Shown: piece after piece, positions 234 to 15,804 of the stretch
Layout: each line of letters starts with the position of its first letter
How positions within the stretch are numbered: the first letter of the stretch is position 1
Virus genome (UHGV): UHGV-0259225
DNA length: 15,804 nt
Origin: a virus
Direction: 5' to 3' (one strand)
Position numbers and translations under genes: made by a program
Notes under the pieces: model-generated
What the model saw: only the letters and a program-made list of their open reading frames with translations
Databases searched by the model: none
What the model was told of the DNA's origin: nothing

Positions 234-236
234 TGA

Positions 237-489: not shown

Positions 490-518
490 ATTTTAGTTAA
501 TTTATCCTTATAAAACAA
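490..518 (-). promoter_or_regulatory. Candidate sigma70 promoter for ogr: -35 TTGTTT (plus-strand 513-518) and -10 TAAAAT (plus-strand 490-495), 17-bp spacer
   Basis: Hexamers read on the minus strand in the D-ogr intergenic region; motif match only, no experimental support. Confidence 0.3.
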
Positions 519-536
519 ACAGATAAAATAAAAACA

Positions 537-1700: not shown

Positions 1701-2179
1701 TATCCCGCCCCCGTCATACCTGTGAATCTGGTCGCCATACTGCCAGCCTTACCGATGAGCGATTCCGCCTGTTTACCGATATCGCCATAAAGCGCGGCCA
1801 GTGATTCATCAACGCGGGTGAGCGACAGCGTAAAATCAATTTTTCGGGGTGTGCCGTCTGCAAAGAAAATACTCCCTGTTTCACTCACCCTGCTGATGAC
1901 ATACATGCCGTAAATCATGCCGGTGCCATCCAGCAACGGCCACGCCCGACCTTCCTCTGCCATCAGCCTGAGCGTGGTCATCGTCAGCTTTCCGCCGGTC
2001 AGTTCGGGATAAAGCACACCGGCAAGCGTGATGTTATCCTCACCCACACCGAGAAACTGAAAGGCATCCCGTTTACCGATACGGGAATTTGACGGCCAGC
2101 GATAATCTGATTCACGCTGCATGGTCTGGTGTGGCAGCGTCTGGCGCATAAAAACAAACATACCTAACGCGAGCATCAT
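1700..2179 (-). CDS. U: Tail protein U, 159 aa
   Basis: Size and synteny with P2 gpU; GGAGGTGA Shine-Dalgarno upstream of ATG. Confidence 0.9.
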   Translation of the reverse strand: MMLALGMFVFMRQTLPHQTMQRESDYRWPSNSRIGKRDAFQFLGVGEDNITLAGVLYPELTGGKLTMTTLRLMAEEGRAWPLLDGTGMIYGMYVISRVSETGSIFFADGTPRKIDFTLSLTRVDESLAALYGDIGKQAESLIGKAGSMATRFTGMTGAG

Positions 2180-2193
2180 TTTTCGTCACCTCC

Positions 2194-4641
2194 TTAACCG
2201 TCATGCATCATGCTGGCACGGGCGCGCGCACGTTTATCCCGCTCGTATTTTTCGAGCGCATCCTGTAACTGGCGGTCAAGCTGTGTCCCCGGCGCAGTAC
2301 CACCCGTCAGGCTGATGTGATATTCGTTTTTACTCTGGTCTACATAAGAGCGGCCAGCCGGTGCCGTGACCGGCTGATAAGCCTGATAGCCTGCATAAGA
2401 GCTGGTCGCCGGAATATAACCACCGGTGCCATACGTGGCGGCATGAGTTCTGGCGGCGGTCTGGTCAAGTGTGTCTGACTCTTTGTTGATGACCCCGAGC
2501 TTTTCCAGTACCCAGTCAATGCCGCTGCGCAGTTTGTTGAACGCATTAAGCGGCAGCATCAGCGCGTCAGCCAGTGCCTGCCCGAACATGACGCCCGTGT
2601 CACGGCAACGGTTCAGGGTGTCCTGTGTGGCTTTGACCGGGGCAATCAGGTTTTTAAACCACTGCCACGCGGCCTGTAACTTTTCGCCCAGCCAGTCAAA
2701 CACCGGCTTAAGTGGCGTGAACAGTTCCCCCACCGGCGCAAATGCCGCTTTCAGCCCTTCCACCACACCGCCAAAGAATGCGCTGACAGGCTCCCAGTAT
2801 TTACGGATAAGCAACGCCCCGGCGACAATGGCGGCCACCACGGCCACAACCGGCCAGCTAATCGCCCCGATGGCCGTCATAACAGCACTGCCAACCGTCG
2901 TGAAGATTGCCCCCATTGCGCCTGCTGCCGCGATGATGGCATTGATGCCGGTGATAACCGGCCAGGCTACAAGACCAATGGCACCGATGATGCCAGTAAG
3001 CGCCAGCGCGCTACCGACAATGAGGCCGATGGTTGACGCCAGTGATTTGTTTTTCTGGATCCAGCCGTCGAGTTTTAACACATACTTTGTGGCCGTCTGA
3101 GTGAGCTTACGCAGTGCGCCTTCCTGCTGGTCAAACAGGTCAGTCCCCACCGCCTCATAAGCGGACTGAAACTCCTTAAAGTCACCGCCGAGGTTATCCT
3201 GCATGATTTTAACCAGCTCTTCCGTTTTACCGTCCGAGGCTTTCAGCGTGGCGGTCAGCTTATCCAGTTTTCCGCTTGCTGCCGCTGCCAGTAAAACGTT
3301 CGCTGATTTCAGGGCTTCCTCACCAAAAATGGTTTTAAGGTATTCCCCCTTCTGAGACGTTCCCAGCTTGTGTTTATCAAAGCTGGCCTGAATCTCTTTC
3401 AGAATGGTGAACAACGGACGCATATTTCCCTTTTTGTCCGAGGTTTTAACGCCAAGCTCTTTGAGTGCATCCCATGCTTTTCCAGTCGGTGCCTGTAATC
3501 GGGTGACAACGGCACTGCTACCCGTCCCCGCCATTGACCCCCTGATGTTATTGTCATGCAGCACACCTGTCATGGCTGCTGCCTGCTCAAGACTTACACC
3601 TGCCGTCCTCGCAACCGGCCCGAGGTAAGTCAGTGCATCACTGAGTCCCTGAAAATCAGCCGCCGACTTATTCATCGTTGCCGACAACACGTCGCCCACA
3701 TGGCTGACATCATCATTTGACAGTTGAAAGGATGCCTTAGTCCCCAGCAACAGTTGCGCGTTTTCTTCCATCGACCGCTGATTCGCCAGTGCCATATTCA
3801 GCGTGACCGGCGTTGCCGCCTGAATAGCCGCAGCATCTCCACCCGCTTTCGCAATGATAATCTGTGCACCGGCTGCATCATCTGCCGAGGCTGCGGTATT
3901 GTCGCCGAGCTGGCGCGCCTGCTTGCGGAGTGCGGTCATTTCGGCGGAGTCTTTTGCCACTCCTAGCACGGCCTGCAATTCTGAGTTTTTCTGCGCAAAC
4001 TCATAACCGGGCATCAGCAGCTTAACTCCGGCCATCGTTCCCGCCGCCGCAATCCCCACACCGGCAGCGCCTACCGAGGCCATATTTCCGGCCAGTTCCT
4101 TTCCGGCCTGATAACGCTGTTTTACTGCGTTAAGTTTTGCCTGTTGCGCACTGACACGCGCCAGCGCGTCACGCTGACGGTTAAGTTGTGCGGTGGTTTC
4201 ACTGATACGGTTTTTCAGTCCCTGCTCATCATGTGCAAGATTGCGGGTATTAATTCCCACAACGGCCAGTTCCCGTTGCTGGCGTTTAACGGAATCCGTC
4301 AGGCGGTTATATTTCGCCTGTAAGTCCTCCGCCGCACGCTTTGCGGATTCCAGCACTTTCGCCTGAGCACGGGTCGGACGTTCGGTGTTTTTAAACTGTG
4401 TGGCAAGGGCTTCGGCTTCCTGCCGTGCCTTTTCAAGTGCATGACCAGTCACGGCGAGCTGTGCACTGGTCTTGCGGAATCCCTCAATACGGGATGCGTG
4501 ACCGTTCAGCTCGCGCAGTGATTTTTGTGTTTCCCGGATATCCCCCGACAGCGATTTGCTCGCTGTACGGATGGATTTAAACGGGCGGGATGCCTGGTCA
4601 ACAGCCCTGAGCAATACCTGTAATTTTACATTGTTACTCAT
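2194..4641 (-). CDS. T: Tail tape measure protein T, 815 aa
   Basis: 815 aa as in P2 gpT; coiled-coil-rich N-terminal half, Gly/Ala-rich hydrophobic central segment typical of tape measure proteins; start overlaps E' stop. Confidence 0.9.
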   Translation of the reverse strand: MSNNVKLQVLLRAVDQASRPFKSIRTASKSLSGDIRETQKSLRELNGHASRIEGFRKTSAQLAVTGHALEKARQEAEALATQFKNTERPTRAQAKVLESAKRAAEDLQAKYNRLTDSVKRQQRELAVVGINTRNLAHDEQGLKNRISETTAQLNRQRDALARVSAQQAKLNAVKQRYQAGKELAGNMASVGAAGVGIAAAGTMAGVKLLMPGYEFAQKNSELQAVLGVAKDSAEMTALRKQARQLGDNTAASADDAAGAQIIIAKAGGDAAAIQAATPVTLNMALANQRSMEENAQLLLGTKASFQLSNDDVSHVGDVLSATMNKSAADFQGLSDALTYLGPVARTAGVSLEQAAAMTGVLHDNNIRGSMAGTGSSAVVTRLQAPTGKAWDALKELGVKTSDKKGNMRPLFTILKEIQASFDKHKLGTSQKGEYLKTIFGEEALKSANVLLAAAASGKLDKLTATLKASDGKTEELVKIMQDNLGGDFKEFQSAYEAVGTDLFDQQEGALRKLTQTATKYVLKLDGWIQKNKSLASTIGLIVGSALALTGIIGAIGLVAWPVITGINAIIAAAGAMGAIFTTVGSAVMTAIGAISWPVVAVVAAIVAGALLIRKYWEPVSAFFGGVVEGLKAAFAPVGELFTPLKPVFDWLGEKLQAAWQWFKNLIAPVKATQDTLNRCRDTGVMFGQALADALMLPLNAFNKLRSGIDWVLEKLGVINKESDTLDQTAARTHAATYGTGGYIPATSSYAGYQAYQPVTAPAGRSYVDQSKNEYHISLTGGTAPGTQLDRQLQDALEKYERDKRARARASMMHDG

Positions 4642-5061
4642 TCGTGTTTCCGCTTCGCCGGAGCGCCTTTTCGCGCCATGTGATGAGTTCGGTCAGGCTC
4701 ATGGGATACAGTTCTGATGGCGGCCAGTGAAATATCACTGCCACATCTGCCATCAGGTCATCGACCGACAGATTTTTCGGAAACGTCACTGCACCGAGTT
4801 CGGAGACAAAAAACCGACCACCTTACCGGCCAGCGCCACAAGGTCAGGCAGTTCCAGCGCGGCGACCTCCTGCTCGGTCAGCATCGGTGCCGTCATGCGC
4901 GGCAGCACCTTAATCAGTGCATCGACTTCGGAGTTTGCGACCGCAGCCAGACTGACACCGCGCAGCGTCCCGGCATTAGGTTTCATCAGCGTGACCTGTT
5001 CGATAACCTGCTCACCACGCTTGACCGGATTGTCCAGGGTAATCACATTTTCTTTGTTCAT
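4634..5061 (-). CDS. E+E': Tail assembly chaperone fusion E+E' (142 aa) made by programmed -1 ribosomal frameshift at 4807-4813
   Basis: I translated the -1 frame by hand downstream of the slippery heptamer: VSELGAVTFPKNLSVDDLMADVAVIFHWPPSELYPMSLTELITWREKALRRSGNTNE, stop TAA at 4634-4636, 4 nt into T. Total 85 + 57 = 142 aa, as in P2. Confidence 0.85.
4786..5061 (-). CDS. E: Tail assembly chaperone E (91 aa, zero-frame product)
   Basis: 91-aa ORF between FII and T, same size and position as P2 gpE. Confidence 0.9.
   Translation of the reverse strand: MNKENVITLDNPVKRGEQVIEQVTLMKPNAGTLRGVSLAAVANSEVDALIKVLPRMTAPMLTEQEVAALELPDLVALAGKVVGFLSPNSVQ
4807..4813 (-). promoter_or_regulatory. Slippery heptamer T TTT TTG (minus strand) for the E/E' -1 frameshift
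   Basis: Codons GGT TTT TTG in E frame verified by hand; canonical X XXY YYZ site, analogous to lambda G/GT. Confidence 0.8.
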
Positions 5062-5089
5062 GGTTTTCTCACTTCTGAATCGGGGTTAA

Positions 5090-5110
5090 CCGGTCAGCCA
5101 GGCTGACCGG
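5090..5110 (-). promoter_or_regulatory. Perfect inverted repeat (cggtcagcc a ggctgaccg) in the FII-E intergenic spacer; candidate mRNA stem-loop / attenuator
   Basis: Seen in sequence; the minus-strand RNA hairpin is followed by UUAACCCCGAUU (not U-rich), so not a classical terminator. Confidence 0.4.
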
Positions 5111-5117
5111 ATGAAAA

Positions 5118-5636
5118 TCACAGGCCGATATTGCGGCGGTGTTGCTCCAGCCGGTCGACGCCGTTCACCTTCTCAATCATGTTGATGGTGTCGATTTCGA
5201 CCAGCTCCTTACCGTCCATCGTCAGCCGGAAATAGGTGCAGACCACGGAGATTTTCGACTCGGTGTCTTCTCCCTGTTTACCCTCGCCGGTGTCGATTTC
5301 TTTCTGACGTCCACGCATGACCACTTCGACGGCCACCGTTTCGCCGGTATCGTCGCGCTGGTAAGAGCCTGCAAAACGAATCGGCACGGCATCCACACCG
5401 GTTGCGGCGTAAAGCTCCCAGATAACCGAATCCGGGAAGCCACCGAGCGACCACTCCATTGACAGCGCATCGTCATCAAGGCCGAGGTCTACCGGTGCGC
5501 TGCCGTTCATCCCCGCACCGCGATAGTTTTCGAGCTTACGGGTCAGTTTTGGCAGCGTGACGGACTTTGCAACGCCCTGATAGCTGTAGCCGTTCAGAAA
5601 GACGTTCATTAACTTGAGTTTGCGCGGCATTGCCAT
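5118..5636 (-). CDS. FII: Major tail tube protein FII, 172 aa
   Basis: Size and sequence consistent with P2 gpFII; immediately downstream of sheath gene; AAGGAG RBS. Confidence 0.9.
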   Translation of the reverse strand: MAMPRKLKLMNVFLNGYSYQGVAKSVTLPKLTRKLENYRGAGMNGSAPVDLGLDDDALSMEWSLGGFPDSVIWELYAATGVDAVPIRFAGSYQRDDTGETVAVEVVMRGRQKEIDTGEGKQGEDTESKISVVCTYFRLTMDGKELVEIDTINMIEKVNGVDRLEQHRRNIGL

Positions 5637-5648
5637 CGGTCAGGCTCC

Positions 5649-6839
5649 TTAATTGCTGTTAACCGAGGTGACCAGACTTGCCAGGTATCTTGAAGTAATA
5701 CGCTGGCGTAGGGTCAGGTTTTCGAGAGGAGGCACCGGTGTATAGTCGTAGTCGATATACAGTTTTCCGGCCTTGAGGGTTTCCGCATCGTTGGCTTCTT
5801 CACTGAACCAGCATGTGCCATCCACGATATAACCGTTGTTTTTCAGTTCGCGGAATTTGGCATTGATGCCATCAATGATGTCGCGAATCAGCGTTGCGGT
5901 GATGGGCTTATCAATAGCCCACATGTGCGCCTCAGCCATCGTGTCGGCCAGTACCTGCGCGGTACGTGTGTAGCTTTCAAAGAGGAAAAGTGGGTCATCG
6001 GAGCAGGTACGGTTACCCCAGAAACGGAAACCGTCGCGGCGAACCAGCGTTGTGACGCCTGCCTCGTTCAGCAGGTCAGCATCAGTGCCAGACTTCTGCA
6101 AATCCCAGAATACAGATGCGCTGATGCCGGTAACACCGTTTACCCCGACGTTGGACAGCGTTTTATGCCAGCCCTGCTCCTGGTCGATTTTGGCACGCAG
6201 CCCCAGCGCACGGGCGGTGGCATACGCGGTGGCGGTGGTACTGGTGACCGTATCCCATGCAAGGAAATCCGGCCAGATGACCATCAGCTCACGCTGACTG
6301 AAATTCTGACGGTAGGCTTTTGCCTCGGAAATGGTTTTACAGCCCCATGCGCTGATATACCCGAAGGCATTCAGTTCCTGGCATACCGATGCCAGTGCAA
6401 CCGCCACCTCTTTGGTGTCCAGTCCCGGTACGCCGAGAATGCGCGGTTTAACGCCGGTAACCGACTCTGCGCCCATCAGGGCTTTCAGTCCGGTGTACTG
6501 ACCGTTTTCGTCAGTGGTGCCGATGATATTGGAAACGGTCTGCGCGAGTTTCGTTTCTTCGTCGTCGCCGGTGCCGTCTTCCACGCGCACGACAACGGTG
6601 ACCGGTTTTGACTGGTCAGCGATGGCCTGCAACGATGCCGCCAGCGTGCCTTTTTTACCGGCCTTTGCAATCGCGCTCTGCACATTGGTGATCAGCACCG
6701 GTTTATTGACGGGGAAGGTTTCCGCATCCGCATCGCTGGCCGTGCAGACCATGCCAACAATGGCGGTGGATACGGTGGAAATGACGCGGGTGCCGTCGTT
6801 AATCTCCAGCACCTGCACGCCGTGATGATAGTCACTCAT
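5649..6839 (-). CDS. FI: Major tail sheath protein FI, 396 aa
   Basis: 396 aa as P2 gpFI; first gene of the FI-FII-E-T-U-D operon; GGAG RBS 9 nt upstream. Confidence 0.9.
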   Translation of the reverse strand: MSDYHHGVQVLEINDGTRVISTVSTAIVGMVCTASDADAETFPVNKPVLITNVQSAIAKAGKKGTLAASLQAIADQSKPVTVVVRVEDGTGDDEETKLAQTVSNIIGTTDENGQYTGLKALMGAESVTGVKPRILGVPGLDTKEVAVALASVCQELNAFGYISAWGCKTISEAKAYRQNFSQRELMVIWPDFLAWDTVTSTTATAYATARALGLRAKIDQEQGWHKTLSNVGVNGVTGISASVFWDLQKSGTDADLLNEAGVTTLVRRDGFRFWGNRTCSDDPLFLFESYTRTAQVLADTMAEAHMWAIDKPITATLIRDIIDGINAKFRELKNNGYIVDGTCWFSEEANDAETLKAGKLYIDYDYTPVPPLENLTLRQRITSRYLASLVTSVNSN

Positions 6840-6930
6840 CCGTTTAACTCCGTGGTTAATGGGTGCAACTATTTTCTGTTGTGCAGAGCATGAGACGCTA
6901 TTTGACCTGGCTGGTCAGTGGATGAAACAA
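6840..6930 (-). promoter_or_regulatory. Expected location of the Ogr-dependent late promoter P_F; contains partial dyads (TGT-N12-ACG at 6880-6897; TGACC-N5-GGTCA at 6903-6917)
   Basis: Position is by synteny with P2 (P_F precedes FI). P2 late promoters carry a TGT-N12-ACA dyad near -55; only imperfect matches found here. Confidence 0.3.
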
Positions 6931-6963
6931 CAGATAAAGAAAAGGCGGGCAATTCGCCCGCCT
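6931..6963 (-). terminator. Rho-independent terminator on minus strand: stem aggcgggc/gcccgcct (6943-6950 / 6956-6963), loop aattc, followed on the minus strand by UUUUCUUUAUCUGUUGUUU
   Basis: Read directly. Ends the G/cargo transcript and insulates it from the FI operon. Confidence 0.7.
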
Positions 6964-7060
6964 GTCCTGATTTGAACTCACTCATTTTCCGACTGACAAT
7001 TTACATAGCCCAAAAGTTATCAAATCTGACGGTCTGCTTTGAACAAGAAGCGGACATTTG

Positions 7061-7087
7061 CCTGTCAGGGTATATGCCGCTCTGCGG
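7061..7087. repeat. Left copy of an imperfect inverted repeat flanking the cargo cassette (CCTGTCAGG-gtatat-GCCGCTCTG)
   Basis: Partner at 7911-7928 reads CAGAGCGG-CCTGTCAG on the plus strand, i.e. the reverse complement with a 6-7 nt deletion and one mismatch. Confidence 0.35.
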
Positions 7088-7168
7088 TTATTATCCAGAA
7101 TCAATAATTCATCTGAGTTGGATTACATATAAAACATAGTTACCCCATGAATAACCATTAGCAGATTA

Positions 7169-7762
7169 TCAATTATGTAAATCTTTTATTTTATGTTCTT
7201 TGGCGTGTTGTGACAACAAATGGCTATAGCGTTTAAGCAAAATATTAGAAAGATTAAGCTCATTCATGAAGTGTTCTTCTAATAAGTAACCATCAATATC
7301 AACTTTAATATCATTACCACTTTTCATCTTCTGTAACGTAGATTTTACACGCTCCAGCAGGATGCTTTGCTCATGGTAATAGTCCATAAGAAGAGTAACA
7401 TCCTCTTTATCAAGCTTACTTAATTCGCTGAAGTAGGATTTAAACACTTTATCACTCTGGTTTAATGCAATCTGTAAGCGAGGCCCCCCTAATGATTTGA
7501 CATTAATGGCAAAAGGCTCGCCAACAAAATGCTCCGAATTTTCGTCAAAGCCAATATATCTCGTTTTATCAAGAAAAGTGAGAGCGCGATGGTTATTAGC
7601 GATTTCATATGCAAACATTGTTCTGATACTGTCCCTCTCAGCCTCCATGCTTATATCATCACGATGATTTGTATAAAATATATTTCCAACAAAGAGAACC
7701 ATAGCAAGAATCACTGAACTTGCCTCCCAGTTAATATTTTTTAATCGTCGCTTAGTAAACAT
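7169..7762 (-). CDS. Hypothetical membrane-anchored protein (197 aa), AT-rich cargo gene at the Z/fun-equivalent position; candidate phage-exclusion/defence protein
   Basis: Intact ORF with AAGGTG RBS; N-terminal KRRLK followed by hydrophobic segment SSVILAMVLFVGNIFY (one predicted TM helix), then a charged, likely helical domain. GC content visibly lower (mid-30s % by eye) than flanking tail genes (>50%). No motif I can assign. Confidence 0.75.
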   Translation of the reverse strand: MFTKRRLKNINWEASSVILAMVLFVGNIFYTNHRDDISMEAERDSIRTMFAYEIANNHRALTFLDKTRYIGFDENSEHFVGEPFAINVKSLGGPRLQIALNQSDKVFKSYFSELSKLDKEDVTLLMDYYHEQSILLERVKSTLQKMKSGNDIKVDIDGYLLEEHFMNELNLSNILLKRYSHLLSQHAKEHKIKDLHN

Positions 7763-7983
7763 ACCGCACCTTAATTATCAAAAATATTCCTTCAGTGTTA
7801 TCTGGTTAGCCTAAACCAAGTCATTAAAGTCTGCAGGATATCATATACATAAAATGTATTGATTAGAATTTGCACTAATAAAATAATGCTTTACTAAAAT
7901 CTACTCCAGACACAGAGCGGCCTGTCAGATTAGGCTTTACTCTGTGCCATAGATACGTTTGCTCACTCCAGAGATCATACAAC
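7763..7983 (-). promoter_or_regulatory. AT-rich 220-bp region upstream of the cargo gene; probable autonomous promoter region
   Basis: No ORF; strongly AT-rich with several TATA-like hexamers (e.g. TATGAT, TATATG on minus strand). No confident -35/-10 pair assigned. Confidence 0.3.
7911..7928. repeat. Right copy of the imperfect inverted repeat flanking the cargo cassette
   Basis: See 7061-7087. Confidence 0.35.
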
Positions 7984-8511
7984 TTATTGCGGCATTTCCG
8001 GCCATTCAGGATTTGCAGGATCCACACGACTGACCAGAACGCTGTAACGCTCCCATGCATCCAGTCGGCTACGCTCCTCATCTGTTGCCATGTTCAGTCT
8101 GACCGCGCGCTCCAGCGGCAAAATCACGGATTCAGCTTCGGAAAGTAAAGTTGCCTTTTGTGATTCTGCCAGTTGCTGCTGTTCGTCTGCCGTATAAATC
8201 CGCTTAATCACGGCACCATCCTTAAACATCCATTTACCTGAGTCATCAGCACGTCGGTTAGCGGTAATATCAGGAACCTCGACAACGCTAAAACCTTCAG
8301 GATGAAGCGTTGAAGCATCTCTGGTGATGGCGACAATAATATTATTCTCGTCGTAAACAATTTTTATTGTGTCTGGCTGAAAATTACTTACTTCCTCATA
8401 CCAGTTTTTTCCGTCTTCGGACCATAACCAGATAACATCAAAATTCTTTGTTAGCTGATATTGTTCTTTTGTTTTTGGATTACCTGACTTAATGTTTTTT
8501 AAATGCTGCAT
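7984..8511 (-). CDS. G: Tail fibre assembly protein G (Tfa-type chaperone), 175 aa
   Basis: 175 aa as P2 gpG; immediately downstream of H. The 5' third of the gene is markedly AT-rich. Confidence 0.85.
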
Positions 8512-8514
8512 AAT

Positions 8515-11250
8515 TTACACCTGCGCAACGTTATACCATGTGCCATTGATGTATTTTTGTATTGGTCTGAATACTGCGGGGTCATCACCATCGACTTCAC
8601 CGACAATACCAAGCCCCGTGATTACATGGCCTGATTTTTCATACATCACGCCTTTTTGCATGGTCTGAACAACACGTGTGCCAAGTCTGACATCTCTCAC
8701 ATAGCGGGAATCAAAGTTACCGTAATCCGAGGGATTAACACGCCCCGTAATATTTATGGTTTTATTACTTTGAATACTTCCCGAGACAAAGCGCATAATA
8801 TGGACGCTATTAGCATAAACATCCAGATTACCATCACCATTTTGTTTAAAGCCCGTGTCATTATCACCCAAAACAATCGAATTACCGCCAAGAGCACTGG
8901 ATGTTCCTATACCCAGAGCACCATTCAATTGACCACCAGATAACGGCAGTGCACCGACATCTCCCGCTGTAGGTTTTCGCGTTGTGGTATAAAACTCAGA
9001 CCAGTCAGCCTCGAATCCGTAACCGTCACGAGCAGAACGATAAAAAATACCGCCGTTCTTATAATTAACGCGGAACTGGGCGGCGGGACAACTTCCTTCA
9101 CCGATATTAAAATGAAGAATTAACGTTGATGCCCCACCAGTAGTTGCGTTATAGGCTCCGCTACTCCAGTTCCACCCAACGGCTTTATCATTCGCAACGG
9201 TGTCTCCTGTTTTTCCTGAAGCAAATGCACCAATATTTTTCGGCGTCAGGTTAATATCTGATGTTCCATCAAACGAAACGTTATTAATTTTACGGGCTGT
9301 TTTCAGCTTTGTTGCTGTCGCCGCATTGCCGGACAGTTCACCAGAAAGGCCAGCACTGAATGTCTGTTTCGCGCCCCATGTCTGGGCTTCGTCAATGATT
9401 GGTACTCGTCTTGCTGTGATCGTGCGGCTTCCCGGATTTCCTGAAATACGCACCATAAAAAATCGGTAGTTCGCTTTACTTACAGTGCTGCGCCATACAT
9501 GCATTGAGCGCCCCGTACCGGAATCATCACTCGGACCAACTGCGATGTTTATCAGGTTGCCATCAATGACGCCCCAGTCCATACCGTCGGGAATATTGGT
9601 CATATTATCCAGCCTAACGGCTATCAGACTGCCCGGCACAAAATCGTAGCTCTGCCAGTCCAGACTGGATAGTTTTGCCACTGCGCCACCGATGCCCAGA
9701 TTCAGAGGCAACGAAAAGGAGTTATATACTTCTCGCCATTCGGTCCATTTTCTCCCGGCATAGACGCGCTCAAAAGTGCGCCCCTGTGTGGTTTCTGATT
9801 TCCCTGTGGTTGTGTAACGCTGCCAGACAGATACACCATCAAAACGCCTGATTACTTCCAGTATTCCAAGCAGTGTCGCTCCAGCGGTATCCTGCATTGG
9901 ACCGTTTGACGCCTTCCCTGTAACGCTGTAAATGCCTGGCGAAGTCAGATCATTCAAATCACCTTCGTAATAACGACATTCTGACTGATGGCCTACTCTT
10001 GACCACGGCTCCCACTGTGGGTTCTGTGCATTCCATGTAGCAGAAAGGCAGCGAACATATACGTTCCCACGGCGGGTCGTATAGCGTTGCGTGCGTGAGT
10101 ACCCACCACCCTCAAGAACTTCAAGGAATCCCTGACCATAACTTCCTTCTTCCGGATAGTTGCGGTCAAATGAAGCGATAGAGCCACTACTGTTTCGCCA
10201 TAAACCAAGATGCTCTGCGCCTCCTAGCGTGTTCAGGTCAATAGTTGTGCTCAGGGGGCGTGTTGCAGACTGAATCTGACGCCAGTAGCTCCACGGACCG
10301 TCTGAGCCATTCCAGGTGCCAGAAAGATTACGCATATAAACATTGCCAGTTCTGGTGGTATAACGCTGCATTCCGGAAAAATTACCGCCATTGAATACCT
10401 CAAGAACACCGACTGCACCGTCTTCAGGGAAATTTTTCTCCAGTGTTGCGTTGGAGGATGTGGATTTATACCAGACACCCACATAAGCCTTAACTGGACC
10501 AAATGTATTGAGATCAGCATCAACCGGCATTTCGCCGTTGTTTTTCATAAACGTCAGGCTGGTAACACCAATATTGTCCAGAAAAGCTGATTTATCCTGG
10601 ATATCTGCACCGTTCTGATTTTTCGCCAGACGTGAATTTGCGTTGTCATTTGCTGCCTTGACCGCTTTTGGCGTTGCCGCCAGCTCTTCACTGGTGCTGT
10701 TTGTTGCACTGCTTAACTGAGTAAAACCTTTTTCTGTCAGCGTGGCGTCAGGATGGCGGCGGGACTGCTCATGCTCTGCGATTTTGTCATCGACGTAATC
10801 CTGCGTCGCCATCACTGTGCTGGCATCAATACTCAGCTCAACGGACGCCACGTTGCTGAGAATAATAACCATGCGGCAGGTCTGCGCACGTCCGGAGCCT
10901 TCAGCCAGTTCTGGCTTATAGCTTTCTGCCATGTTGGACACCGCAATCAGTGTTCCGGCATCGTCATACAGACCAAGTTCACGCATCCAGAAGCCGCCCA
11001 CTTCTGGCGGTACAACCAGTTCAGCCACGATATAGTTTTTATTCTTGTTATCCACGCTGACTTTATTCAGAGCGTGACGCCAGACCTCATGCACCAGTTT
11101 CGTCTGACCGGCATCCGGCACCGGCAATTTGCCATTACCGTCACCCACGGCCATTGCAGACAGGTTTACTTTTTTCCCGCCGGGGACAGTGGCGGCTGCC
11201 AGCTTTGCGGCTCCGGCAGTAGTGATAACGGTTTTAAATTTCGTGCTCAT
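8515..11250 (-). CDS. H: Tail fibre protein H, 911 aa (P2-like N-terminus, expanded repeat-containing shaft, divergent C-terminal receptor-binding region)
   Basis: N-terminal ~230 aa match recalled P2 gpH (MSTKFKTVITTAGAAKLAAATVPGG...); located between I and G. Confidence 0.9.
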   Translation of the reverse strand: MSTKFKTVITTAGAAKLAAATVPGGKKVNLSAMAVGDGNGKLPVPDAGQTKLVHEVWRHALNKVSVDNKNKNYIVAELVVPPEVGGFWMRELGLYDDAGTLIAVSNMAESYKPELAEGSGRAQTCRMVIILSNVASVELSIDASTVMATQDYVDDKIAEHEQSRRHPDATLTEKGFTQLSSATNSTSEELAATPKAVKAANDNANSRLAKNQNGADIQDKSAFLDNIGVTSLTFMKNNGEMPVDADLNTFGPVKAYVGVWYKSTSSNATLEKNFPEDGAVGVLEVFNGGNFSGMQRYTTRTGNVYMRNLSGTWNGSDGPWSYWRQIQSATRPLSTTIDLNTLGGAEHLGLWRNSSGSIASFDRNYPEEGSYGQGFLEVLEGGGYSRTQRYTTRRGNVYVRCLSATWNAQNPQWEPWSRVGHQSECRYYEGDLNDLTSPGIYSVTGKASNGPMQDTAGATLLGILEVIRRFDGVSVWQRYTTTGKSETTQGRTFERVYAGRKWTEWREVYNSFSLPLNLGIGGAVAKLSSLDWQSYDFVPGSLIAVRLDNMTNIPDGMDWGVIDGNLINIAVGPSDDSGTGRSMHVWRSTVSKANYRFFMVRISGNPGSRTITARRVPIIDEAQTWGAKQTFSAGLSGELSGNAATATKLKTARKINNVSFDGTSDINLTPKNIGAFASGKTGDTVANDKAVGWNWSSGAYNATTGGASTLILHFNIGEGSCPAAQFRVNYKNGGIFYRSARDGYGFEADWSEFYTTTRKPTAGDVGALPLSGGQLNGALGIGTSSALGGNSIVLGDNDTGFKQNGDGNLDVYANSVHIMRFVSGSIQSNKTINITGRVNPSDYGNFDSRYVRDVRLGTRVVQTMQKGVMYEKSGHVITGLGIVGEVDGDDPAVFRPIQKYINGTWYNVAQV
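9721..10518 (-). repeat. Three tandem diverged ~280-bp (~93-aa) repeats inside H (protein residues ~245-337, 338-430, 431-510)
   Basis: Each unit starts DLN(T/D)(F/L) and contains FPEDG/YPEEG ... LEV ... QRYTT(R/T) ... GNVY(M/V)R ... W; DNA copies are diverged but recognisable (e.g. cctcaagaac near 10110 and 10390). Confidence 0.7.
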
Positions 11251-11260
11251 TGTTTCTCAC

Positions 11261-11791
11261 TTATCCGGGATAAACAGTAATAACATCACCATCACAGACC
11301 ACACCGCCTGTATACAGATAGCCGGGAATGTCCTGGATAATGTTCAGACCGATAAGGTGGCGACTTGCGGGTTTGGCATCGGCAATCAGCCGTTCCATTT
11401 CCAGATACATCTCCTCTGTGATACCGCTTTCCAGCACACCGATATCAAGGCGAAAGGTTCCGGGCGGGTCGTTTGTCTCCCACCATTCCTTTACGTTAAT
11501 GAGATAGCCGAGCGGCTCCACCACACGCCGGATTGCGCCTATAGTGCCTTTATGACAGTGGATGAAATACGCATCGCGGATCACGGCGCGTTTTGTCGCT
11601 TCCGGCCACTTTTCATCCCACCTGTCGACCGAAAACGCCCACGCCAGCCACGGCAGCAGATTTGCCGGACAGGTGCCCGGGTTCCACAGCTCACGAATAC
11701 TGACCGGTGTCTTTTCAATTTCCGCACAGGCTTTTGCGGCAGCAACTTCAAGCGGTGATGAGCCGGTCGGCAGCAGTCGCGAATCACTCAT
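11261..11791 (-). CDS. I: Baseplate assembly protein I, 176 aa
   Basis: Size and synteny with P2 gpI. Confidence 0.9.
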   Translation of the reverse strand: MSDSRLLPTGSSPLEVAAAKACAEIEKTPVSIRELWNPGTCPANLLPWLAWAFSVDRWDEKWPEATKRAVIRDAYFIHCHKGTIGAIRRVVEPLGYLINVKEWWETNDPPGTFRLDIGVLESGITEEMYLEMERLIADAKPASRHLIGLNIIQDIPGYLYTGGVVCDGDVITVYPG

Positions 11792-12692
11792 CCGAGCCTC
11801 CGGTCACGACGCGGTATTCGGTACAGAAAGACGCCTGCGTACTGTTGAGCACGATGTCGGCCAGCGGTGCAGTCAGTTCGACACGCTGCACGCCTTCCAC
11901 ATGCAAAGCGGCATAAATGGCAGACAGACGGATGTCGCGCCCCAGCCGGTGCTGTGCCGTGATGTACGCTTCCAGTTTTTTCACGGCAGCAGCGCGGATG
12001 GGTTCGCTTTCGGGACCAGGGTAAAGGTAAAGCGTGGCGTTTATCTGGTATTCAACAATGGCGGCAGACTGCACGGTCACGCGGTCGGCCACCGGCCTGA
12101 CGTCCTCGCCATTAAGGGCATTACGCACCACGGCCAGCAGGTCTTCGGATGCGACACCGTTATTTTCACGTGACAGCACGGAGATGGTGACGCAGGCCGG
12201 AGACGGACTGGTGACAGAGATATCCGCGACACGCCCGTCGGCACTGCGGCCATGATACTGATAGGCTCCCACCGACCCGGCGACGCTTAAGCCTTCAAAC
12301 GCCTGCTGAATACGCAGACGATAATCCGTGTCAGATTCCATCACTGCCGGTGTCGGCGGGATGGTCGAATCATCTGCCGGGGTGATAGTCAGGCGCGTGG
12401 TGTTGTAATTGGCACCAATCACATCAAGGTCATTACCGGCGGCACAGGCCAGCATCACCGCCCGTGCGGCCTCATTCACACGCTGACGCCAGATAAGCTC
12501 ACGATAAGCATTTTCCTCCAGCAGTTTGACGAGAGGCTCGGATTCCAGCGTCAGGGTACGGGCGACCGCCTCCTGCTGGTCTTCCGGGTAAAGGGAAATC
12601 AGTGTCGCCTTGCGTTCAGCGAGAATGGTTTCAAAGTCCAGCTCCTCGACCACATCCGGTGCGGGTAGCTGGTTCAGGTCGATAATCGGCAT
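11784..12692 (-). CDS. J: Baseplate assembly protein J, 302 aa
   Basis: Size and synteny with P2 gpJ; 8-nt overlap with I. Confidence 0.9.
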   Translation of the reverse strand: MPIIDLNQLPAPDVVEELDFETILAERKATLISLYPEDQQEAVARTLTLESEPLVKLLEENAYRELIWRQRVNEAARAVMLACAAGNDLDVIGANYNTTRLTITPADDSTIPPTPAVMESDTDYRLRIQQAFEGLSVAGSVGAYQYHGRSADGRVADISVTSPSPACVTISVLSRENNGVASEDLLAVVRNALNGEDVRPVADRVTVQSAAIVEYQINATLYLYPGPESEPIRAAAVKKLEAYITAQHRLGRDIRLSAIYAALHVEGVQRVELTAPLADIVLNSTQASFCTEYRVVTGGSDE

Positions 12693-12696
12693 GGTT

Positions 12697-13044
12697 TCAA
12701 CTCACAGGGATGGTTAATGAAAGTGGCTGGCCGGTGTCGTTGTGCTGGCCGGTTAACGTGACCGTCATTCGCCCGTCAAAGCTGCGCTCAGTGATGACGG
12801 ATGACAGGGTGACGCGGGGTTCCCATTTCAGCACTGCCATGTAACAGGCTACCTTAATCTGCAACTCAAGCGCCGGGGTCTGCGGCTGGTCAATCATTGA
12901 CGCCAGCAACGAGCCGTAATCACGACGCATCACCCGTGAGCCGACCGGCGTGCGCAGGATATCGCCGATACTCTGGCTGATATGCTCAAGGTCAGTGACC
13001 GTCAGGCCATCACTGCGATTCATTCCGAGATAACGCGCTGTCAT
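12697..13044 (-). CDS. W: Baseplate wedge protein W, 115 aa
   Basis: Size and synteny with P2 gpW; start overlaps V stop (ATGA). Confidence 0.9.
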   Translation of the reverse strand: MTARYLGMNRSDGLTVTDLEHISQSIGDILRTPVGSRVMRRDYGSLLASMIDQPQTPALELQIKVACYMAVLKWEPRVTLSSVITERSFDGRMTVTLTGQHNDTGQPLSLTIPVS

Positions 13045-13676
13045 AAAGGACTCCCGGTTGTGCCGCCGCTGTCGCCGGGGTGTTTATGGGTATGCAGTAC
13101 CTTACCGTTTGATGAGAGTTCACCGCCGGTGTGTTCAATGTTGCCGCGCATCGTCCCGCCCTTCTGTACTTCCAGCGTGCCGGTAATCAGCCTGTTGGTG
13201 CAGACCACCTCCGGCGTGTCCAGGGTGATGCGGGTTGATGCTTTCACCATGACCACCGGCACCGTGGCAGTAACAGAATCAGAAGCCGTCACGCTGGCCG
13301 TTTTAACTCCGCTTACCGTGAGCGCGCTGGTTTCAGGTTCATACTCAATCACCGCCCCGTCAGGGAAACGGATATACAGGGCATCCGCCGACGCAGACGG
13401 CGCGGGGTTATCGCCGGAATAAATCCCCGGCAGAACGAACGCCGTGTCGAGTTCACCACCCACGGCCAGAATCAGCACCTGTTCCCCCACGGAAGGTGCC
13501 CACCATGTGCGCGAACGCCCGGCGCGATGGGTCAGCCACTGAAGCCAGTCGGTGCACATGCCGCCGGTCTGCACACGGCAGCGACCGGCATTAAGGTCGG
13601 TTTCGACGATAATGCCGGTGCGGATCATGTTGCGCAGTGCGCGCGCGAGTTCCTGAATATTTGCGAGAGTGTTCAT
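13041..13676 (-). CDS. V: Baseplate spike protein V, 211 aa
   Basis: Size and synteny with P2 gpV; first gene of the V-W-J-I-H-G operon. Confidence 0.9.
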   Translation of the reverse strand: MNTLANIQELARALRNMIRTGIIVETDLNAGRCRVQTGGMCTDWLQWLTHRAGRSRTWWAPSVGEQVLILAVGGELDTAFVLPGIYSGDNPAPSASADALYIRFPDGAVIEYEPETSALTVSGVKTASVTASDSVTATVPVVMVKASTRITLDTPEVVCTNRLITGTLEVQKGGTMRGNIEHTGGELSSNGKVLHTHKHPGDSGGTTGSPL

Positions 13677-13687
13677 AACGGGAAGGA

Positions 13688-13711
13688 TGCCGCCGGGTCA
13701 TACCGGCGGCA
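13688..13711 (-). promoter_or_regulatory. 9-bp GC-rich stem-loop (tgccgccgg gtcata ccggcggca) 12 nt upstream of the V start codon, within the expected P_V late promoter region
   Basis: Stem-loop read directly. No Shine-Dalgarno between hairpin and ATG. A TGT-N10-ACA palindrome lies at 13726-13741. Function inferred from synteny with P2 P_V. Confidence 0.35.
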
Positions 13712-13742
13712 ATGTGACGATGAGGTGTCAGGAATGGCACAA

Positions 13743-14195
13743 CTAACGCTCAAGGTGAGCCAGGATAATCTCTTCAATCATCTGCACATCCTCACCGGTA
13801 AAGCCGAGCAGAGGACGCGTCGGATAATCAATTTTCTTACCGTCTTTCCGGGTTTCTTCCGACAGACCGAACTGATGCACACTGGCGATTTTCGGTGACT
13901 TTCCGCCGTAAAACTCCATTGATGCCTGTTCCGGGCTGGCGCGGATATGCAAAAAACGACTGGTGATAAGTTTCGCAAACATTTTTCGCTTAACACGACC
14001 GGTCTTTTTTCTGGCGCTCTGCTGCTGGCGTGGTGCGTAGGGTGTGCCGTCCGGGGCTTTCTGTGCCATCACCCGGCGCTGCTGACTCTGCCGCAGATGT
14101 TTCGCCAGTTCGGTGCTCAGTCGCCGACGCCCTGATGGTGACAGTGATTCAATCAGCCCGGTCAGCCGGTCTTCAAAACGCTTAAACTCATTCAT
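13743..14195 (-). CDS. S: Tail completion protein S, 150 aa
   Basis: Size and synteny with P2 gpS. Confidence 0.9.
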   Translation of the reverse strand: MNEFKRFEDRLTGLIESLSPSGRRRLSTELAKHLRQSQQRRVMAQKAPDGTPYAPRQQQSARKKTGRVKRKMFAKLITSRFLHIRASPEQASMEFYGGKSPKIASVHQFGLSEETRKDGKKIDYPTRPLLGFTGEDVQMIEEIILAHLER

Positions 14196-14655
14196 CCCAC
14201 TTGCTCACCAGTTCGCCATTGATATAAAGCTCCATCGGGCGGATGACCGGCTCCGGCGGCGGAGGTTCCGGGATATTCTTCACATGCAGTGCGCCGTCCA
14301 CCTCACTGACCAGCGTGCGCTCGGTCAGCATCAGGCTGATGCTGATATCAAAGCTGCTGTCATTGTTGATGTCCGCATAAAACGTGAAGCCCTTTTTCTG
14401 GCCTTCGTCGGTGGTCATGATGTCGGGCTGATTTTCCCGCAGCCACGCCAGCACCGGCACGATGAGCAGGTCAAAATCACCGGTAAAGTCGGTCACAATG
14501 ACATTGAGCGTGTAACGCTTTTCGAATGACAGCGACGTCGCCAGTGTGGAGGCAATACTCCCGTTATCCACGAATATCCGCAGCATATCGGGGTTAGTTT
14601 TCAGCACCGTGACGGCATCAGTCAGCGCCCTGCGCAGGCTGTCGGGTTTGAGCAT
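14188..14655 (-). CDS. R: Tail completion protein R, 155 aa
   Basis: Size and synteny with P2 gpR; 8-nt overlap with S. Confidence 0.9.
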   Translation of the reverse strand: MLKPDSLRRALTDAVTVLKTNPDMLRIFVDNGSIASTLATSLSFEKRYTLNVIVTDFTGDFDLLIVPVLAWLRENQPDIMTTDEGQKKGFTFYADINNDSSFDISISLMLTERTLVSEVDGALHVKNIPEPPPPEPVIRPMELYINGELVSKWDE

Positions 14656-14908
14656 CGTTTTCGTCCTGACAGTGTTTAATCATTTTTACCTGGCTGGCAC
14701 AGCGCGCCAGCGCGTTCTCAAGCTGCCGGATATCGGCACTTAAATCACCGTTCGTCTCCGGGTCGCTGCCCGGCATCGGGCAAAGACTCACTTTCGGGCA
14801 GGCGTTGTGGACAATCACTGGCGTCGGTGCAGGCGGGGCGCTGGTGCAACCGGCGCACAGCATCAGGCAGGTCAGCACCGTACCAGCGGCGAAAATCTTC
14901 GTTTTCAT
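14618..14908 (-). CDS. lysC: LysC, Rz1-like outer-membrane lipoprotein spanin (96 aa), embedded out of frame in lysB 3' end and overlapping R start
   Basis: Signal peptide with Cys-containing lipobox-like LCAGC, proline-rich APPAPTPV segment; 96 aa as P2 LysC. Confidence 0.8.
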   Translation of the reverse strand: MKTKIFAAGTVLTCLMLCAGCTSAPPAPTPVIVHNACPKVSLCPMPGSDPETNGDLSADIRQLENALARCASQVKMIKHCQDENDAQTRQPAQGAD

Positions 14909-15188
14909 TCAGTAACCTCGTGATGGTTTTCTCGCGCTGTGCTTCACGTTTCGCGGCGTTCTCCAGTTCCTGACGCAGTGCCACCTGCGCCAGCTCGTTT
15001 TTGTCTGCCCTGGTGAGTGCAACATGAAGCTGGTTTTTCAGCATGGTGATGGTCGTCTGCTGTTCACTGGCGACGTTGTTCGCCCTGTCCAGCGAAGCGC
15101 GCAGGCTGGCATTTTTGTGTTTCACCAGAAACAGACCGGACACCGCCAGCGATAACAACACGACCAGCACAATCATCAGCTTTGACAT
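14745..15188 (-). CDS. lysB: LysB, Rz-like inner-membrane spanin (147 aa from first ATG; 143 aa if started at the ATG overlapping the lysA-like stop)
   Basis: N-terminal TM helix (IVLVVLLSLAVSGLFLV) followed by charged coiled-coil-like region; position upstream of R. Confidence 0.8.
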   Translation of the reverse strand: MSKLMIVLVVLLSLAVSGLFLVKHKNASLRASLDRANNVASEQQTTITMLKNQLHVALTRADKNELAQVALRQELENAAKREAQREKTITRLLNENEDFRRWYGADLPDAVRRLHQRPACTDASDCPQRLPESESLPDAGQRPGDER

Positions 15189-15469
15189 GGTTCCCGCTCC
15201 TCAAGACGCTGACGGCAGGCCGTACATATCAGCCGGAAGAACACCGATGCCACGAGATAAATCAGCGCGGTAAAAATCCACCCGGCAGCGACCAGCGAGA
15301 TAAACGTCGCCACCATCACTACCAGAGCCGCCGCCCGTCTGCGCCACGGCACCGGCTGCAAAAACAGCGACGTGACAATCTTCACGGCCAGCGATTCCGG
15401 CGGCAGCTCCCGCCCGTAGCGTTCCAGTACATACTCCGTGGCATACACGCCGACACCACCGGCAACCAC
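15176..15469 (-). CDS. lysA: LysA-like small membrane protein; start uncertain (GTG at 15467-15469, no in-frame ATG; hydrophobic reading frame continues upstream to stop at 15509-15511)
   Basis: Hydrophobic segments (AAALVVMVATFISLVAAGWIFTALIYLVASVFF) and position between K and lysB. Stop overlaps lysB internal ATG (TGATG). Confidence 0.5.
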   Translation of the reverse strand: MVAGGVGVYATEYVLERYGRELPPESLAVKIVTSLFLQPVPWRRRAAALVVMVATFISLVAAGWIFTALIYLVASVFFRLICTACRQRLEEREPCQS

Positions 15470-15594
15470 ACAGATAACCGTCGCCAGAATCGCCGGCGGC
15501 GTACCGGCTTAAACGGAGTCAACACCATGAAGAAATTATCCCTTTCACTGATGCTGAACGTGTCGCTGGCGCTGATGCTGGCACTGTCCCTGAT

Positions 15595-15804
15595 TTACCC
15601 GCAGAGCGTGGCCGTCAGTTTTGTCGCTGCCTGGGCGGTACGCCAGGCGGTGACCAGTTTTTCCAGTGAATGCTCACGCTGACCGTAACCGGCACCCGGC
15701 AGGGACGCCCAGATATTGCGACAGCGTGAAATGGCGCGCTCAATGCGTCCCGCCCGGATGTCATCCAGTGCACCGCGTTCGCGGATCAACTGAATGGCGA
15801 GTCT
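15595..15804 (-). CDS. K: Endolysin K (lysozyme), C-terminal 69 codons; N-terminus lies beyond the window edge
   Basis: Frame is open to the window edge; translation ...RLAIQLIRERGALDDIRAGRIERAISRCRNIWASLPGAGYGQREHSLEKLVTAWRTAQAATKLTATLCG matches recalled P2 gpK C-terminus. ORF-track start at 15789 is a TTG artefact. Confidence 0.85.
   Translation of the reverse strand, partial: RLAIQLIRERGALDDIRAGRIERAISRCRNIWASLPGAGYGQREHSLEKLVTAWRTAQAATKLTATLCG

What the first reader, a model, noticed from the sequence alone, without database searches (positions are those of the whole stretch)
15176..15604. lysA-equivalent lacks an in-frame ATG; possible disrupted or non-canonically initiated lysis regulator
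Between the K stop (15595) and lysB there should be a ~140-aa LysA. The hydrophobic reading frame ending at 15176 is open only up to a TAA at 15509-15511 and has no ATG in that stretch (GTG at 15467, ATT/CTG further up). The nearest ATG with a plausible RBS (15526-15528, AGGG ~11 nt upstream) is in a different frame and would give only 40 aa. So either LysA starts at a non-ATG codon and is much shorter than in P2, or the gene carries a frameshift (real pseudogene or sequencing error). Since LysA affects lysis timing, a defect could matter for induction of this prophage.
Basis: seen in the sequence. Interest (0 to 1): 0.45.

Follow-up and report, generated by a model that had tools for sequence, protein, structure and literature searches.

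The report
Small inversion splits prophage lysA gene
The P2-type prophage gene lysA, a non-essential lysis-timing gene, lacks a start codon here because a 139-147 bp piece of DNA carrying its start and the last codons of the neighbouring endolysin gene is flipped, a one-off disruption seen in no other genome searched.

Summary
Reading the minus strand, the lysA frame ending at 15176 is open only back to TAA 15511-15509. It has no ATG before codon 52 of the 97-aa GTG ORF.

The cause is neither a frameshift nor an unusual start. Window 15491-15637 is the exact reverse complement of the arrangement in every other P2-like phage or prophage examined. This segment is 147 bp, with a 139-bp unique core between 4-bp CGCC/GGCG inverted microhomologies. 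Flipping it back reproduces E. coli EC18 base for base. That restores a normal K endolysin end (…WRTAGGVPA*) and an intact 141-aa ATG-initiated LysA.

As it stands:
- The lysA ribosome-binding site and codons 1-37 lie on the + strand (ATG 15527-15529).
- K has a 12-residue replacement tail.
- LysA is almost certainly not made.

The inverted junctions and the aberrant proteins were found nowhere else: 1,560 E. coli records, IMG/VR, JGI metagenomes, GTDB representatives and a 15-billion-protein set. Native controls were found easily.

Most likely this is a very recent microhomology-mediated inversion in one clone. A sequence or assembly artefact cannot be excluded without the reads. Biologically it is an ordinary private loss-of-function allele in a known, non-essential antiholin gene.

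The parts
15491..15637 (.). Inverted segment. It is 147 bp including the 4-bp microhomology at each end, with an unambiguous core at 15495-15633 (139 bp). It is the reverse complement of the native arrangement.
   Evidence: BLAST against EC18 (L001) and P2 (L002). Window 15637-15491 matches L001 1668-1814 on the opposite strand at 100%, and P2 at 97.3%. The flanks match colinearly. Flipping it back reproduces EC18 1501-2305 exactly.
15634..15637 (.). Left junction microhomology, CGCC on the minus strand. In the native sequence it is the left half of the 8-bp palindrome CGCCGGCG at the 3' end of K.
   Evidence: Junction sequences printed. The ambiguity of 4 bp was computed.
15491..15494 (.). 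Right junction microhomology, GGCG on the minus strand. It is the inverted-repeat partner of the left junction and falls in lysA codons 36-37.
15595..15804 (-). 3' part of the endolysin gene K; the window cuts off its 5' end. Native codons run to 15638. The last 5 native residues (GGVPA) are replaced by 12 residues (QAATKLTATLCG) read from antisense lysA sequence, ending at a new stop at 15597-15595.
   Evidence: Native K aligns to lambda lysozyme R (1AM7/3D3D) at E=3e-44 up to K residue 163.
15507..15637 (+). Displaced 5' end of lysA, now on the + strand. It carries the native K stop (TAA 15510-15512), the lysA Shine-Dalgarno GGAG (15515-18), ATG 15527-15529 and codons 1-37 (MKKLSLSLMLNVSLALMLALSLIYPQSVAVSFVAAWA). 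It reads on into antisense K as a 51-aa ORF (15527-15682).
   Evidence: No promoter-like site was found on either strand of 15100-15804.
15176..15494 (-). 3' part of lysA (codons ~37-141 plus the stop), left without its RBS and ATG. The longest canonical ORF is the 97-aa GTG ORF at 15469-15176.
   Evidence: NCBIfam NF038378 matches only model positions 45-124. The sequence upstream of GTG 15469 pairs weakly with the anti-SD: -3.3 kcal/mol, against -8.9 for lysB.
15382..15528 (-). 48-aa out-of-frame ORF, a by-product of the inversion. Its ATG is the reverse reading of the palindromic CATG at the lysA start.
   Evidence: It is not in the 15-billion-protein collection.
15623..15654 (+). Hairpin created at the left junction (12-nt arms, 83% complementary). 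It is followed by a T-run only on the + strand, so it is not an intrinsic terminator for the late (minus-strand) transcript.
   Evidence: (I6).
14745..15188 (-). lysB (Rz-like spanin), intact, with its own strong Shine-Dalgarno sequence. It overlaps the lysA stop as in P2.

Best explanation
The window is the late-gene half of a P2-type (Peduovirus) prophage of E. coli, read on the minus strand as K, lysA, lysB/lysC, R, S, V ... D, ogr.

A single clean inversion of 139-147 bp was shown directly from the sequence. It is bounded by the 4-bp inverted repeat CGCC...GGCG and has flipped the K/lysA junction. Its direct consequences are:
- The lysA ribosome-binding site, ATG and first 37 codons now point the wrong way.
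- The remaining 104 lysA codons have no proper start.
- K ends in 12 foreign residues instead of GGVPA.

Inferred functional consequences:
- LysA, a four-transmembrane-segment antiholin-type lysis-timing protein that is non-essential in P2, is not made, or at best as a poorly translated fragment lacking TM1 and part of TM2.
- K probably still works, because only the tail after its last conserved helix is changed.
- lysB, lysC, R and S should still be expressed. No sense-strand terminator was created and lysB keeps its own strong RBS.
- The expected phenotype, if the prophage ever enters lytic growth, is slightly earlier lysis, as reported for P2 lysA amber mutants.

Inferred origin: a very recent, one-off, microhomology-mediated inversion, probably by replication template switching at the palindromic, hairpin-prone 3' end of K, in the sequenced clone. 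It is not a programmed switch.

The structural description (an inversion that splits lysA) is essentially certain. The confidence of 0.7 refers to the full statement, including that the inversion really exists in the organism.
For: - Exact breakpoint mapping, with 100% identity of both the segment and its flanks to EC18.
- Restoring the orientation yields native K and the 141-aa LysA.
- Both native proteins are abundant as exact sequences: K on 473 contigs and LysA on 120.
- Across the rest of the 15.8-kb window there is one synonymous difference from EC18, and the window allele is the common one. This suggests an independent natural genome in which the inversion is very young.
- None of 1,560 E. 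coli records with the locus spans the junction.
- Junction k-mers are absent from GTDB representatives, IMG/VR and JGI metagenomes. The native junction is found in 49 viral contigs.
- Nine possible aberrant gene products are absent from the protein collection.
- Inverted microhomology of 4 bp or more occurs in only ~1.8% of arbitrary inversions in this sequence. That fits a real mutational mechanism better than random mis-joining.
- The full LysA covers the NF038378 model, while the remnant covers only positions 45-124.
- LysA is described as an antiholin with four TM segments (PMC3091744). The P2 record says 'nonessential; affects timing of lysis'.
- K aligns to lambda R up to residue 163.
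- There is no new sense-strand terminator and no promoter-like site.
- The SD of the remnant start is weak, and lysB has a strong one.
Against: - No reads are available, so the inversion could exist only in the assembly or record.
- A singleton with zero divergence is what an artefact would also look like.
- Four bp is a minimal microhomology.
- The native hairpin at the left breakpoint is only modestly more stable than shuffles (z=-1.86, 8 of 200 shuffles as good). The whole region shows no structure that brings the breakpoints together (z=+0.21). The template-switch mechanism is therefore plausible but not demonstrated.
- The effects on K activity, on LysA fragment expression and on downstream polarity are inferred and not measured.
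- The N-terminal 103 codons of K lie outside the window.
Confidence: 0.7

Rival explanations
1. The inversion is not in the organism. It is an assembly, polishing, chimeric-read or record-editing artefact, and the real prophage has the native K-lysA arrangement.
For: - The allele is unique among all collections searched.
- The segment and flanks are 100% identical to a close relative, so there is no sign of age.
- The rearrangement lies only 167 bp from the window end.
- From my own knowledge, not tested here: strand-switch chimeras in amplified libraries are typically inversions with short microhomology.
Against: - De Bruijn or long-read consensus assemblers do not normally produce a clean, loss-free 139-bp inversion bounded by only 4 bp of inverted repeat. 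The junction k-mers would need read support.
- The 4-bp microhomology is improbable (~1.8%) for an arbitrary mis-join.
- The rest of the window looks like a bona fide natural allele.
Confidence: 0.25
2. The segment is a programmed invertible element, a phase switch that toggles LysA (antiholin) expression and the endolysin C-terminus to vary lysis timing.
For: - The inversion is precise and loss-free and sits exactly on a regulatory junction: the K stop, lysA RBS and lysA start.
- A short inverted repeat flanks it.
Against: - The inverted repeats are only 4 bp, and no longer inverted repeat brackets the segment.
- No recombinase or invertase gene is among the 26 features annotated across the equivalent EC18 region.
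- No record among 1,560 E. coli replicons, 75 phage records or 49 viral contigs shows the flipped state. A working switch should be caught in both states.
- The flipped state gives a truncated, start-less gene and not an alternative product.
Confidence: 0.02
3. One reading: (a) LysA here is a naturally shorter, GTG-initiated 97-aa protein, or (b) lysA carries a frameshift (indel).
For: The 97-aa ORF still scores above the NCBIfam cut-off (60.9 bits against 40).
Against: - (a) The listed full-length LysA cluster members are 141 aa, and the one 124-aa entry is labelled partial. P2 and EC18 lysA start with an ATG 14 nt after the K stop. The missing 37 codons are present in the window on the other strand. 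GTG 15469 has a weak SD.
- (b) The alignments to EC18 contain no gaps.
Confidence: 0.01

Closest known systems
Bacteriophage P2 lysA (LysA, NP_046766; NCBIfam NF038378 'DNZ54_00345 family')
   Same: - Same position, between K and lysB in the P2 late O operon.
- The restored protein is 141 aa, near-identical to P2 LysA (8 substitutions by inspection of the two sequences printed) and identical to an allele seen on 120 contigs.
- It matches the full NF038378 model.
   Different: In the window the gene is split by an inversion. Codons 1-37 with the RBS are on the + strand and codons ~37-141 on the minus strand without a proper start. No other sequence searched shares this.
Bacteriophage P2 gene K endolysin / lambda R lytic transglycosylase (PDB 1AM7, 3D3D)
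   Same: The part of K in the window is 100% identical to EC18 K up to residue 160. Native K aligns to lambda R at E=3e-44.
   Different: The C-terminal GGVPA is replaced by QAATKLTATLCG, giving 172 aa instead of 165. This exact protein is not on record.
Microhomology-mediated small inversions (replication template switching at short inverted repeats or quasi-palindromes)
   Same: - The event is clean and loss-free, and bounded by a 4-bp inverted repeat.
- The left breakpoint is in the centre of an 8-bp perfect palindrome inside a hairpin-prone stretch.
   Different: The mechanism is not demonstrated here. The hairpin is only marginally unusual, and 4 bp is at the low end of microhomology length.
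Phage and bacterial site-specific invertible segments (Gin/Cin/Hin/Pin G- and C-segments, fimS-type invertons)
   Same: A DNA segment lies in inverted orientation at a gene boundary in a phage genome.
   Different: - There are no long inverted repeats and no invertase.
- The orientation is not polymorphic in the population.
- The inverted state destroys a gene instead of swapping an alternative one.

Membership tests
P2 LysA / NCBIfam NF038378 (DNZ54_00345 family) | Profile match above the curated cut-off over the whole model | tested here: not met
   As encoded in the window, the 97-aa remnant scores 60.9 bits (cut-off 40) but covers only model positions 45-124 of 124. After computationally restoring the inversion, the 141-aa protein scores 114.9 bits over positions 1-124. 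This is a member by descent, but the gene is not intact.
P2 LysA / NCBIfam NF038378 (DNZ54_00345 family) | Located between endolysin K and spanin lysB in the late operon, overlapping the lysB start | tested here: met
   The gene order K-lysA-lysB-lysC-R-S is colinear with P2 and EC18.
P2 LysA / NCBIfam NF038378 (DNZ54_00345 family) | ~141 aa, ATG start with an SD about 14 nt downstream of the K stop | tested here: not met
   The ATG and SD are on the opposite strand (15527-15529 and 15515-15518). The minus-strand frame is closed at 15511-15509.
P2 LysA / NCBIfam NF038378 (DNZ54_00345 family) | Four transmembrane segments | tested here: inconclusive
   Four TM segments are reported for P2 LysA by OCTOPUS (PMC3091744). 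My Kyte-Doolittle scan shows hydrophobic blocks at about residues 3-59 and 88-130 but does not resolve the number. The remnant lacks residues 1-44, so it lacks the first segment and part of the second.
P2 LysA / NCBIfam NF038378 (DNZ54_00345 family) | Delays holin-triggered lysis (antiholin phenotype) | not testable with these tools
   This rests on the literature: the P2 record note 'nonessential; affects timing of lysis', PMC3091744, and Ziermann et al. 1994 (PMID 8051010), which I recall from memory because the paper is not held.
Lambda R-type endolysin (P2 K) | Sequence homology to lambda lysozyme over the catalytic fold | tested here: met
   Native K residues 9-163 align to 1AM7/3D3D residues 7-152 at E=3e-44. 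The window changes only residues 161 onward. The N-terminal 103 residues, which would include the catalytic site, lie outside the window and were taken from EC18.
Site-specific invertible switch (invertase-driven inverton) | Flanking inverted repeats of roughly 10 bp or more serving as crossover sites | tested here: not met
   Only a 4-bp CGCC/GGCG repeat is present. No inverted-repeat pair has arms at both junctions.
Site-specific invertible switch (invertase-driven inverton) | Recombinase or invertase gene in or near the element | tested here: not met
   None is among the 26 annotated features of the equivalent 19-kb EC18 region. The early region of the prophage lies outside the window.
Site-specific invertible switch (invertase-driven inverton) | Both orientations found among related genomes | tested here: not met
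   None of the 1,560 E. coli records spans the inverted junction, and no junction hit was found in the three contig collections. The native junction is common.
Microhomology-mediated inversion (mutation class) | Loss-free inversion with short inverted microhomology at both junctions | tested here: met
   There is a 4-bp overlap at both junctions and no bases are gained or lost. The chance expectation for 4 bp or more is ~1.8%.

The most novel reading that the evidence does not exclude
The K/lysA junction of P2-type phages might be a hotspot for a reversible, recombinase-independent micro-inversion at the CGCCGGCG palindrome. Such an event would stochastically switch off the antiholin and remodel the endolysin tail, giving a subpopulation with altered lysis timing. 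This window would then be the first captured 'off' state.
Probability: 0.02. Interest if true: 0.55.

Novelty: already known. Interest (0 to 1): 0.15.

Why it matters
It matters little biologically. lysA is a known, non-essential lysis-timing gene of a very well studied phage, and this is a private loss-of-function allele or possibly an artefact.

The practical value is for annotation:
- A gene that 'lacks a start codon' here is a split gene, not a non-canonical start or a frameshift.
- The neighbouring endolysin's apparent C-terminus and stop are also products of the rearrangement.
- Anyone using this prophage for induction, lysis-timing work or endolysin cloning should check the locus by PCR.

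Tried and rejected
- **Frameshift or indel:** rejected. The alignments to EC18 are gap-free.
- **Natural short GTG-initiated LysA:** rejected.
- **Searching for the inverted allele elsewhere:** nothing was found in E. coli complete genomes, GTDB representatives, IMG/VR or JGI metagenomes. Exact-protein look-ups of nine possible aberrant products also found nothing.
- **Pfam:** it gave no usable family for LysA, only sub-threshold membrane-protein noise, and none for K'. NCBIfam and the PDB sequence search were used instead.
- **Primary P2 lysis paper (PMC196335):** not held. One literature search failed on a term shorter than three characters.
- **Structure-driven breakpoint juxtaposition:** not supported. 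The whole-region DNA fold has z=+0.21 and the local hairpin only z=-1.86.
- **Invertase-type inverted repeats:** none found.
- **New sense-strand terminator or antisense promoter:** none found. The junction hairpin is terminator-like only on the + strand.
- **Rho-dependent polarity through the new untranslated gap:** this looks unlikely from composition, at 35% G against 25% C, but it is not excluded.

Full report
**What the window is.** The 15,804-bp window is the late-gene half of a P2-type (Peduovirus) prophage. Read on the minus strand, it contains:
- the 3' two-thirds of K (endolysin)
- lysA, lysB and lysC
- R, S, V, W, J, I, H and G
- a cargo ORF
- FI, FII, E/E', T, U and D
- ogr

The ORF list is colinear with the annotation of P2 NC_001895 and of E. 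coli strain EC18 NZ_CM169484.1. Over window 1-15494 the sequence differs from EC18 by one base in 15,494, with no gaps. That base (window 14545) is a synonymous Thr37 codon in gene R. The window carries the allele that is common in other P2-like prophages.

**Checking the observation.**
- A K-like frame stops at TAA 15597-15595.
- The hydrophobic frame that ends at 15176 is closed upstream by TAA 15511-15509.
- The first canonical start in that frame is GTG 15469-15467, giving 97 aa.
- ATG 15528-15526 is in another frame and gives 48 aa.

P2 and EC18 both have a 141-aa ATG-initiated lysA beginning 14 nt after the K stop. Something is therefore genuinely wrong with the gene here.

**What is actually there.**
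- *The clue.* The + strand ORF list contained MKKLSLSLMLNVSLALMLALSLIYPQSVAVSFVAAWA…. This is the N-terminus of LysA.
- *Search pattern.* In searches of phages and E. coli complete genomes, every listed hit was split into two colinear pieces covering about 83% of an 805-bp query. Each also had a second 'place' in the record. This included the two hits at 100% identity.
- *Breakpoints.* Pairwise BLAST gave them exactly. Window 15804-15634 and 15494-15000 align colinearly to EC18. Window 15637-15491 aligns to the intervening EC18 bases on the opposite strand. All three pieces are 100% identical and gap-free, with a 4-bp overlap at each junction.
- *Junction sequences.* The native sequence reads …CGTAC[CGCC]GGCGGCGTACCGGCTTAAACGGAG…GCTGCCTG[GGCG]ATTCTGG…. 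The window reads …CGTAC[CGCC]CAGGCAGCGAC…CCGGTACGCCGCC[GGCG]ATTCTGG….
- *Restoring it.* Re-inverting 15491-15637 in silico reproduces EC18 exactly. That gives K ending …VTAWRTAGGVPA* and the intact 141-aa LysA.

The lesion is therefore a clean, loss-free inversion of a 139-bp core (147 bp counting the CGCC/GGCG microhomology). It is not a frameshift and not a non-canonical start.

**Consequences that can be read directly.**
1. K keeps residues 1-160, but its last five residues (GGVPA) are replaced by QAATKLTATLCG, with a new stop at 15597-15595.
2. The native K stop, the lysA Shine-Dalgarno GGAG, the lysA ATG (15527-15529) and codons 1-37 now lie on the + strand. There they open a 51-aa ORF running into antisense K.
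3. lysA codons ~37-141 remain on the minus strand without their start.
4. They come from the palindromic TTAA at the K stop and the palindromic CATG at the lysA start.

**Consequences that are inferred.**
- *LysA.* It is very probably not made.
  - The remnant's GTG has weak anti-SD complementarity, at -3.3 kcal/mol against -8.9 for lysB.
  - Even if translated, the product would match only positions 45-124 of the 124-position NCBIfam LysA model.
  - It would lack the first hydrophobic segment and part of the second.
- *K.* It is a lambda-R-type enzyme (E=3e-44 to 1AM7/3D3D). Only the residues after the last aligned helix are changed, so it probably remains active.
- *Transcription signals.* No promoter-like site exists on either strand of 15100-15804. 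The only new hairpin (15623-15654) is terminator-like on the + strand, not on the late transcript.
- *Downstream genes.* lysB keeps its strong RBS. The roughly 400-nt stretch between the new K stop and lysB is G-rich (35% G, 25% C), which is a poor Rho-loading substrate. Polarity on lysB/lysC/R/S is therefore not expected, though it was not excluded.
- *Phenotype.* LysA is described as the P2 antiholin with four transmembrane segments (PMC3091744). The P2 record calls it 'nonessential; affects timing of lysis'. From memory of Ziermann et al. 1994 (PMID 8051010; the paper is not held), a lysA amber mutant lyses slightly early. The predicted phenotype is therefore mild.

**How widespread it is.** It was found nowhere else.

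| Search | Result |
|---|---|
| 141-bp junction-spanning query vs E. coli complete genomes | 1,560 records matched, none over 80% or more of the query |
| Exact junction patterns in GTDB species representatives | 0 matches |
| Exact junction pattern in IMG/VR | 0 matches |
| Exact junction pattern in JGI metagenomes | 0 matches |
| Native junction 22-mer in IMG/VR (positive control) | 49 viral contigs |
| Nine possible products of the rearranged locus in the ~15-billion-protein collection | all absent |
| Native K and native LysA, exact sequences (positive controls) | present on 473 and 120 contigs |

The nine products were full-length K', two partial K' variants, the 97-aa remnant, three shorter remnants, and the 48-aa and 51-aa by-product ORFs.

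**Real mutation or artefact.** This cannot be settled without reads.

In favour of a real, very recent event:
- The junctions share a 4-bp inverted microhomology. Only about 1.8% of arbitrary inversions in this sequence would show that.
- The left breakpoint sits in the centre of the perfect palindrome CGCCGGCG, inside a hairpin-prone stretch at the end of K. That hairpin folds at -12.7 kcal/mol as ssDNA (z=-1.86).
- Assemblers need read support for the junction k-mers.
- The rest of the window looks like a natural allele distinct from EC18.

In favour of an artefact:
- The allele is a singleton with zero divergence.
- The structural argument is weak. The whole-region fold is unremarkable (z=+0.21).

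I put a real private mutation at about 0.7 and an artefact at about 0.25.

A programmed invertible switch is very unlikely (about 0.02):
- The repeats are only 4 bp.
- No invertase is annotated across the equivalent region.
- No flipped state appears in any other genome.

**Comparison with what is known, and verdict.** The gene is P2 lysA (NCBIfam NF038378) by position, by descent and by sequence. It fails the 'intact gene' criteria as encoded here. The neighbouring gene is the P2 K / lambda R-type endolysin with an altered tail. The event belongs to the known class of microhomology-bounded small inversions.

Nothing here departs from known systems. It is an ordinary pseudogenising structural variant, or an error, in a well-characterised non-essential phage gene.

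Noticed in passing
window 7169-7762 (minus strand): A 197-aa ORF sits between the tail-fibre assembly gene (G) and the sheath gene (FI), which is the cargo slot where P2 carries Z/fun. RefSeq calls the EC18 copy a 'lysogenic conversion protein'. It has no Pfam or PADLOC match at E<=0.01.
   Followed up: partly
window 14545 (gene R, codon 37): This is the only base difference from EC18 across 15,494 colinear bases. It is a synonymous ACA/ACG Thr codon, and the window allele is the one common among other P2-like prophages.
   Followed up: yes
window 1-455: ogr lies at 237-455 (minus strand). Window position 1 is the base immediately before the fieF start codon in EC18, so 1-236 should contain the prophage right end (attR) next to fieF/pfkA. 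The att core was not delimited.
   Followed up: no
window 8515-11250 (minus strand): The tail-fibre gene H encodes 911 aa. It combines a P2-type N-terminal collar-fibre domain with T4 gp37-like C-terminal and trimerisation domains, a mosaic receptor-binding tip.
   Followed up: partly
window 13677-13742 (between S and V): S and V are separated by only 66 nt. In P2 this position carries the putative O-operon terminator and the oppositely oriented non-essential orf30, which is absent here and in EC18.
   Followed up: no
L002 (NC_001895.1) 1704-2129: The RefSeq P2 record gives the lysA product as 'endolysin', although its own note says 'nonessential; affects timing of lysis'. Several other RefSeq phage records in the hit list likewise label two features in this region 'endolysin'. 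This looks like an annotation error being propagated.
   Followed up: no
window 15623-15654 (+ strand): The inversion turned an imperfect direct repeat (GTCACCGCCTGG in K, GTCGCTGCCTGG in lysA) into a 12-nt-arm hairpin. On the + strand only, it is followed by a T-run and scores as terminator-like.
   Followed up: yes
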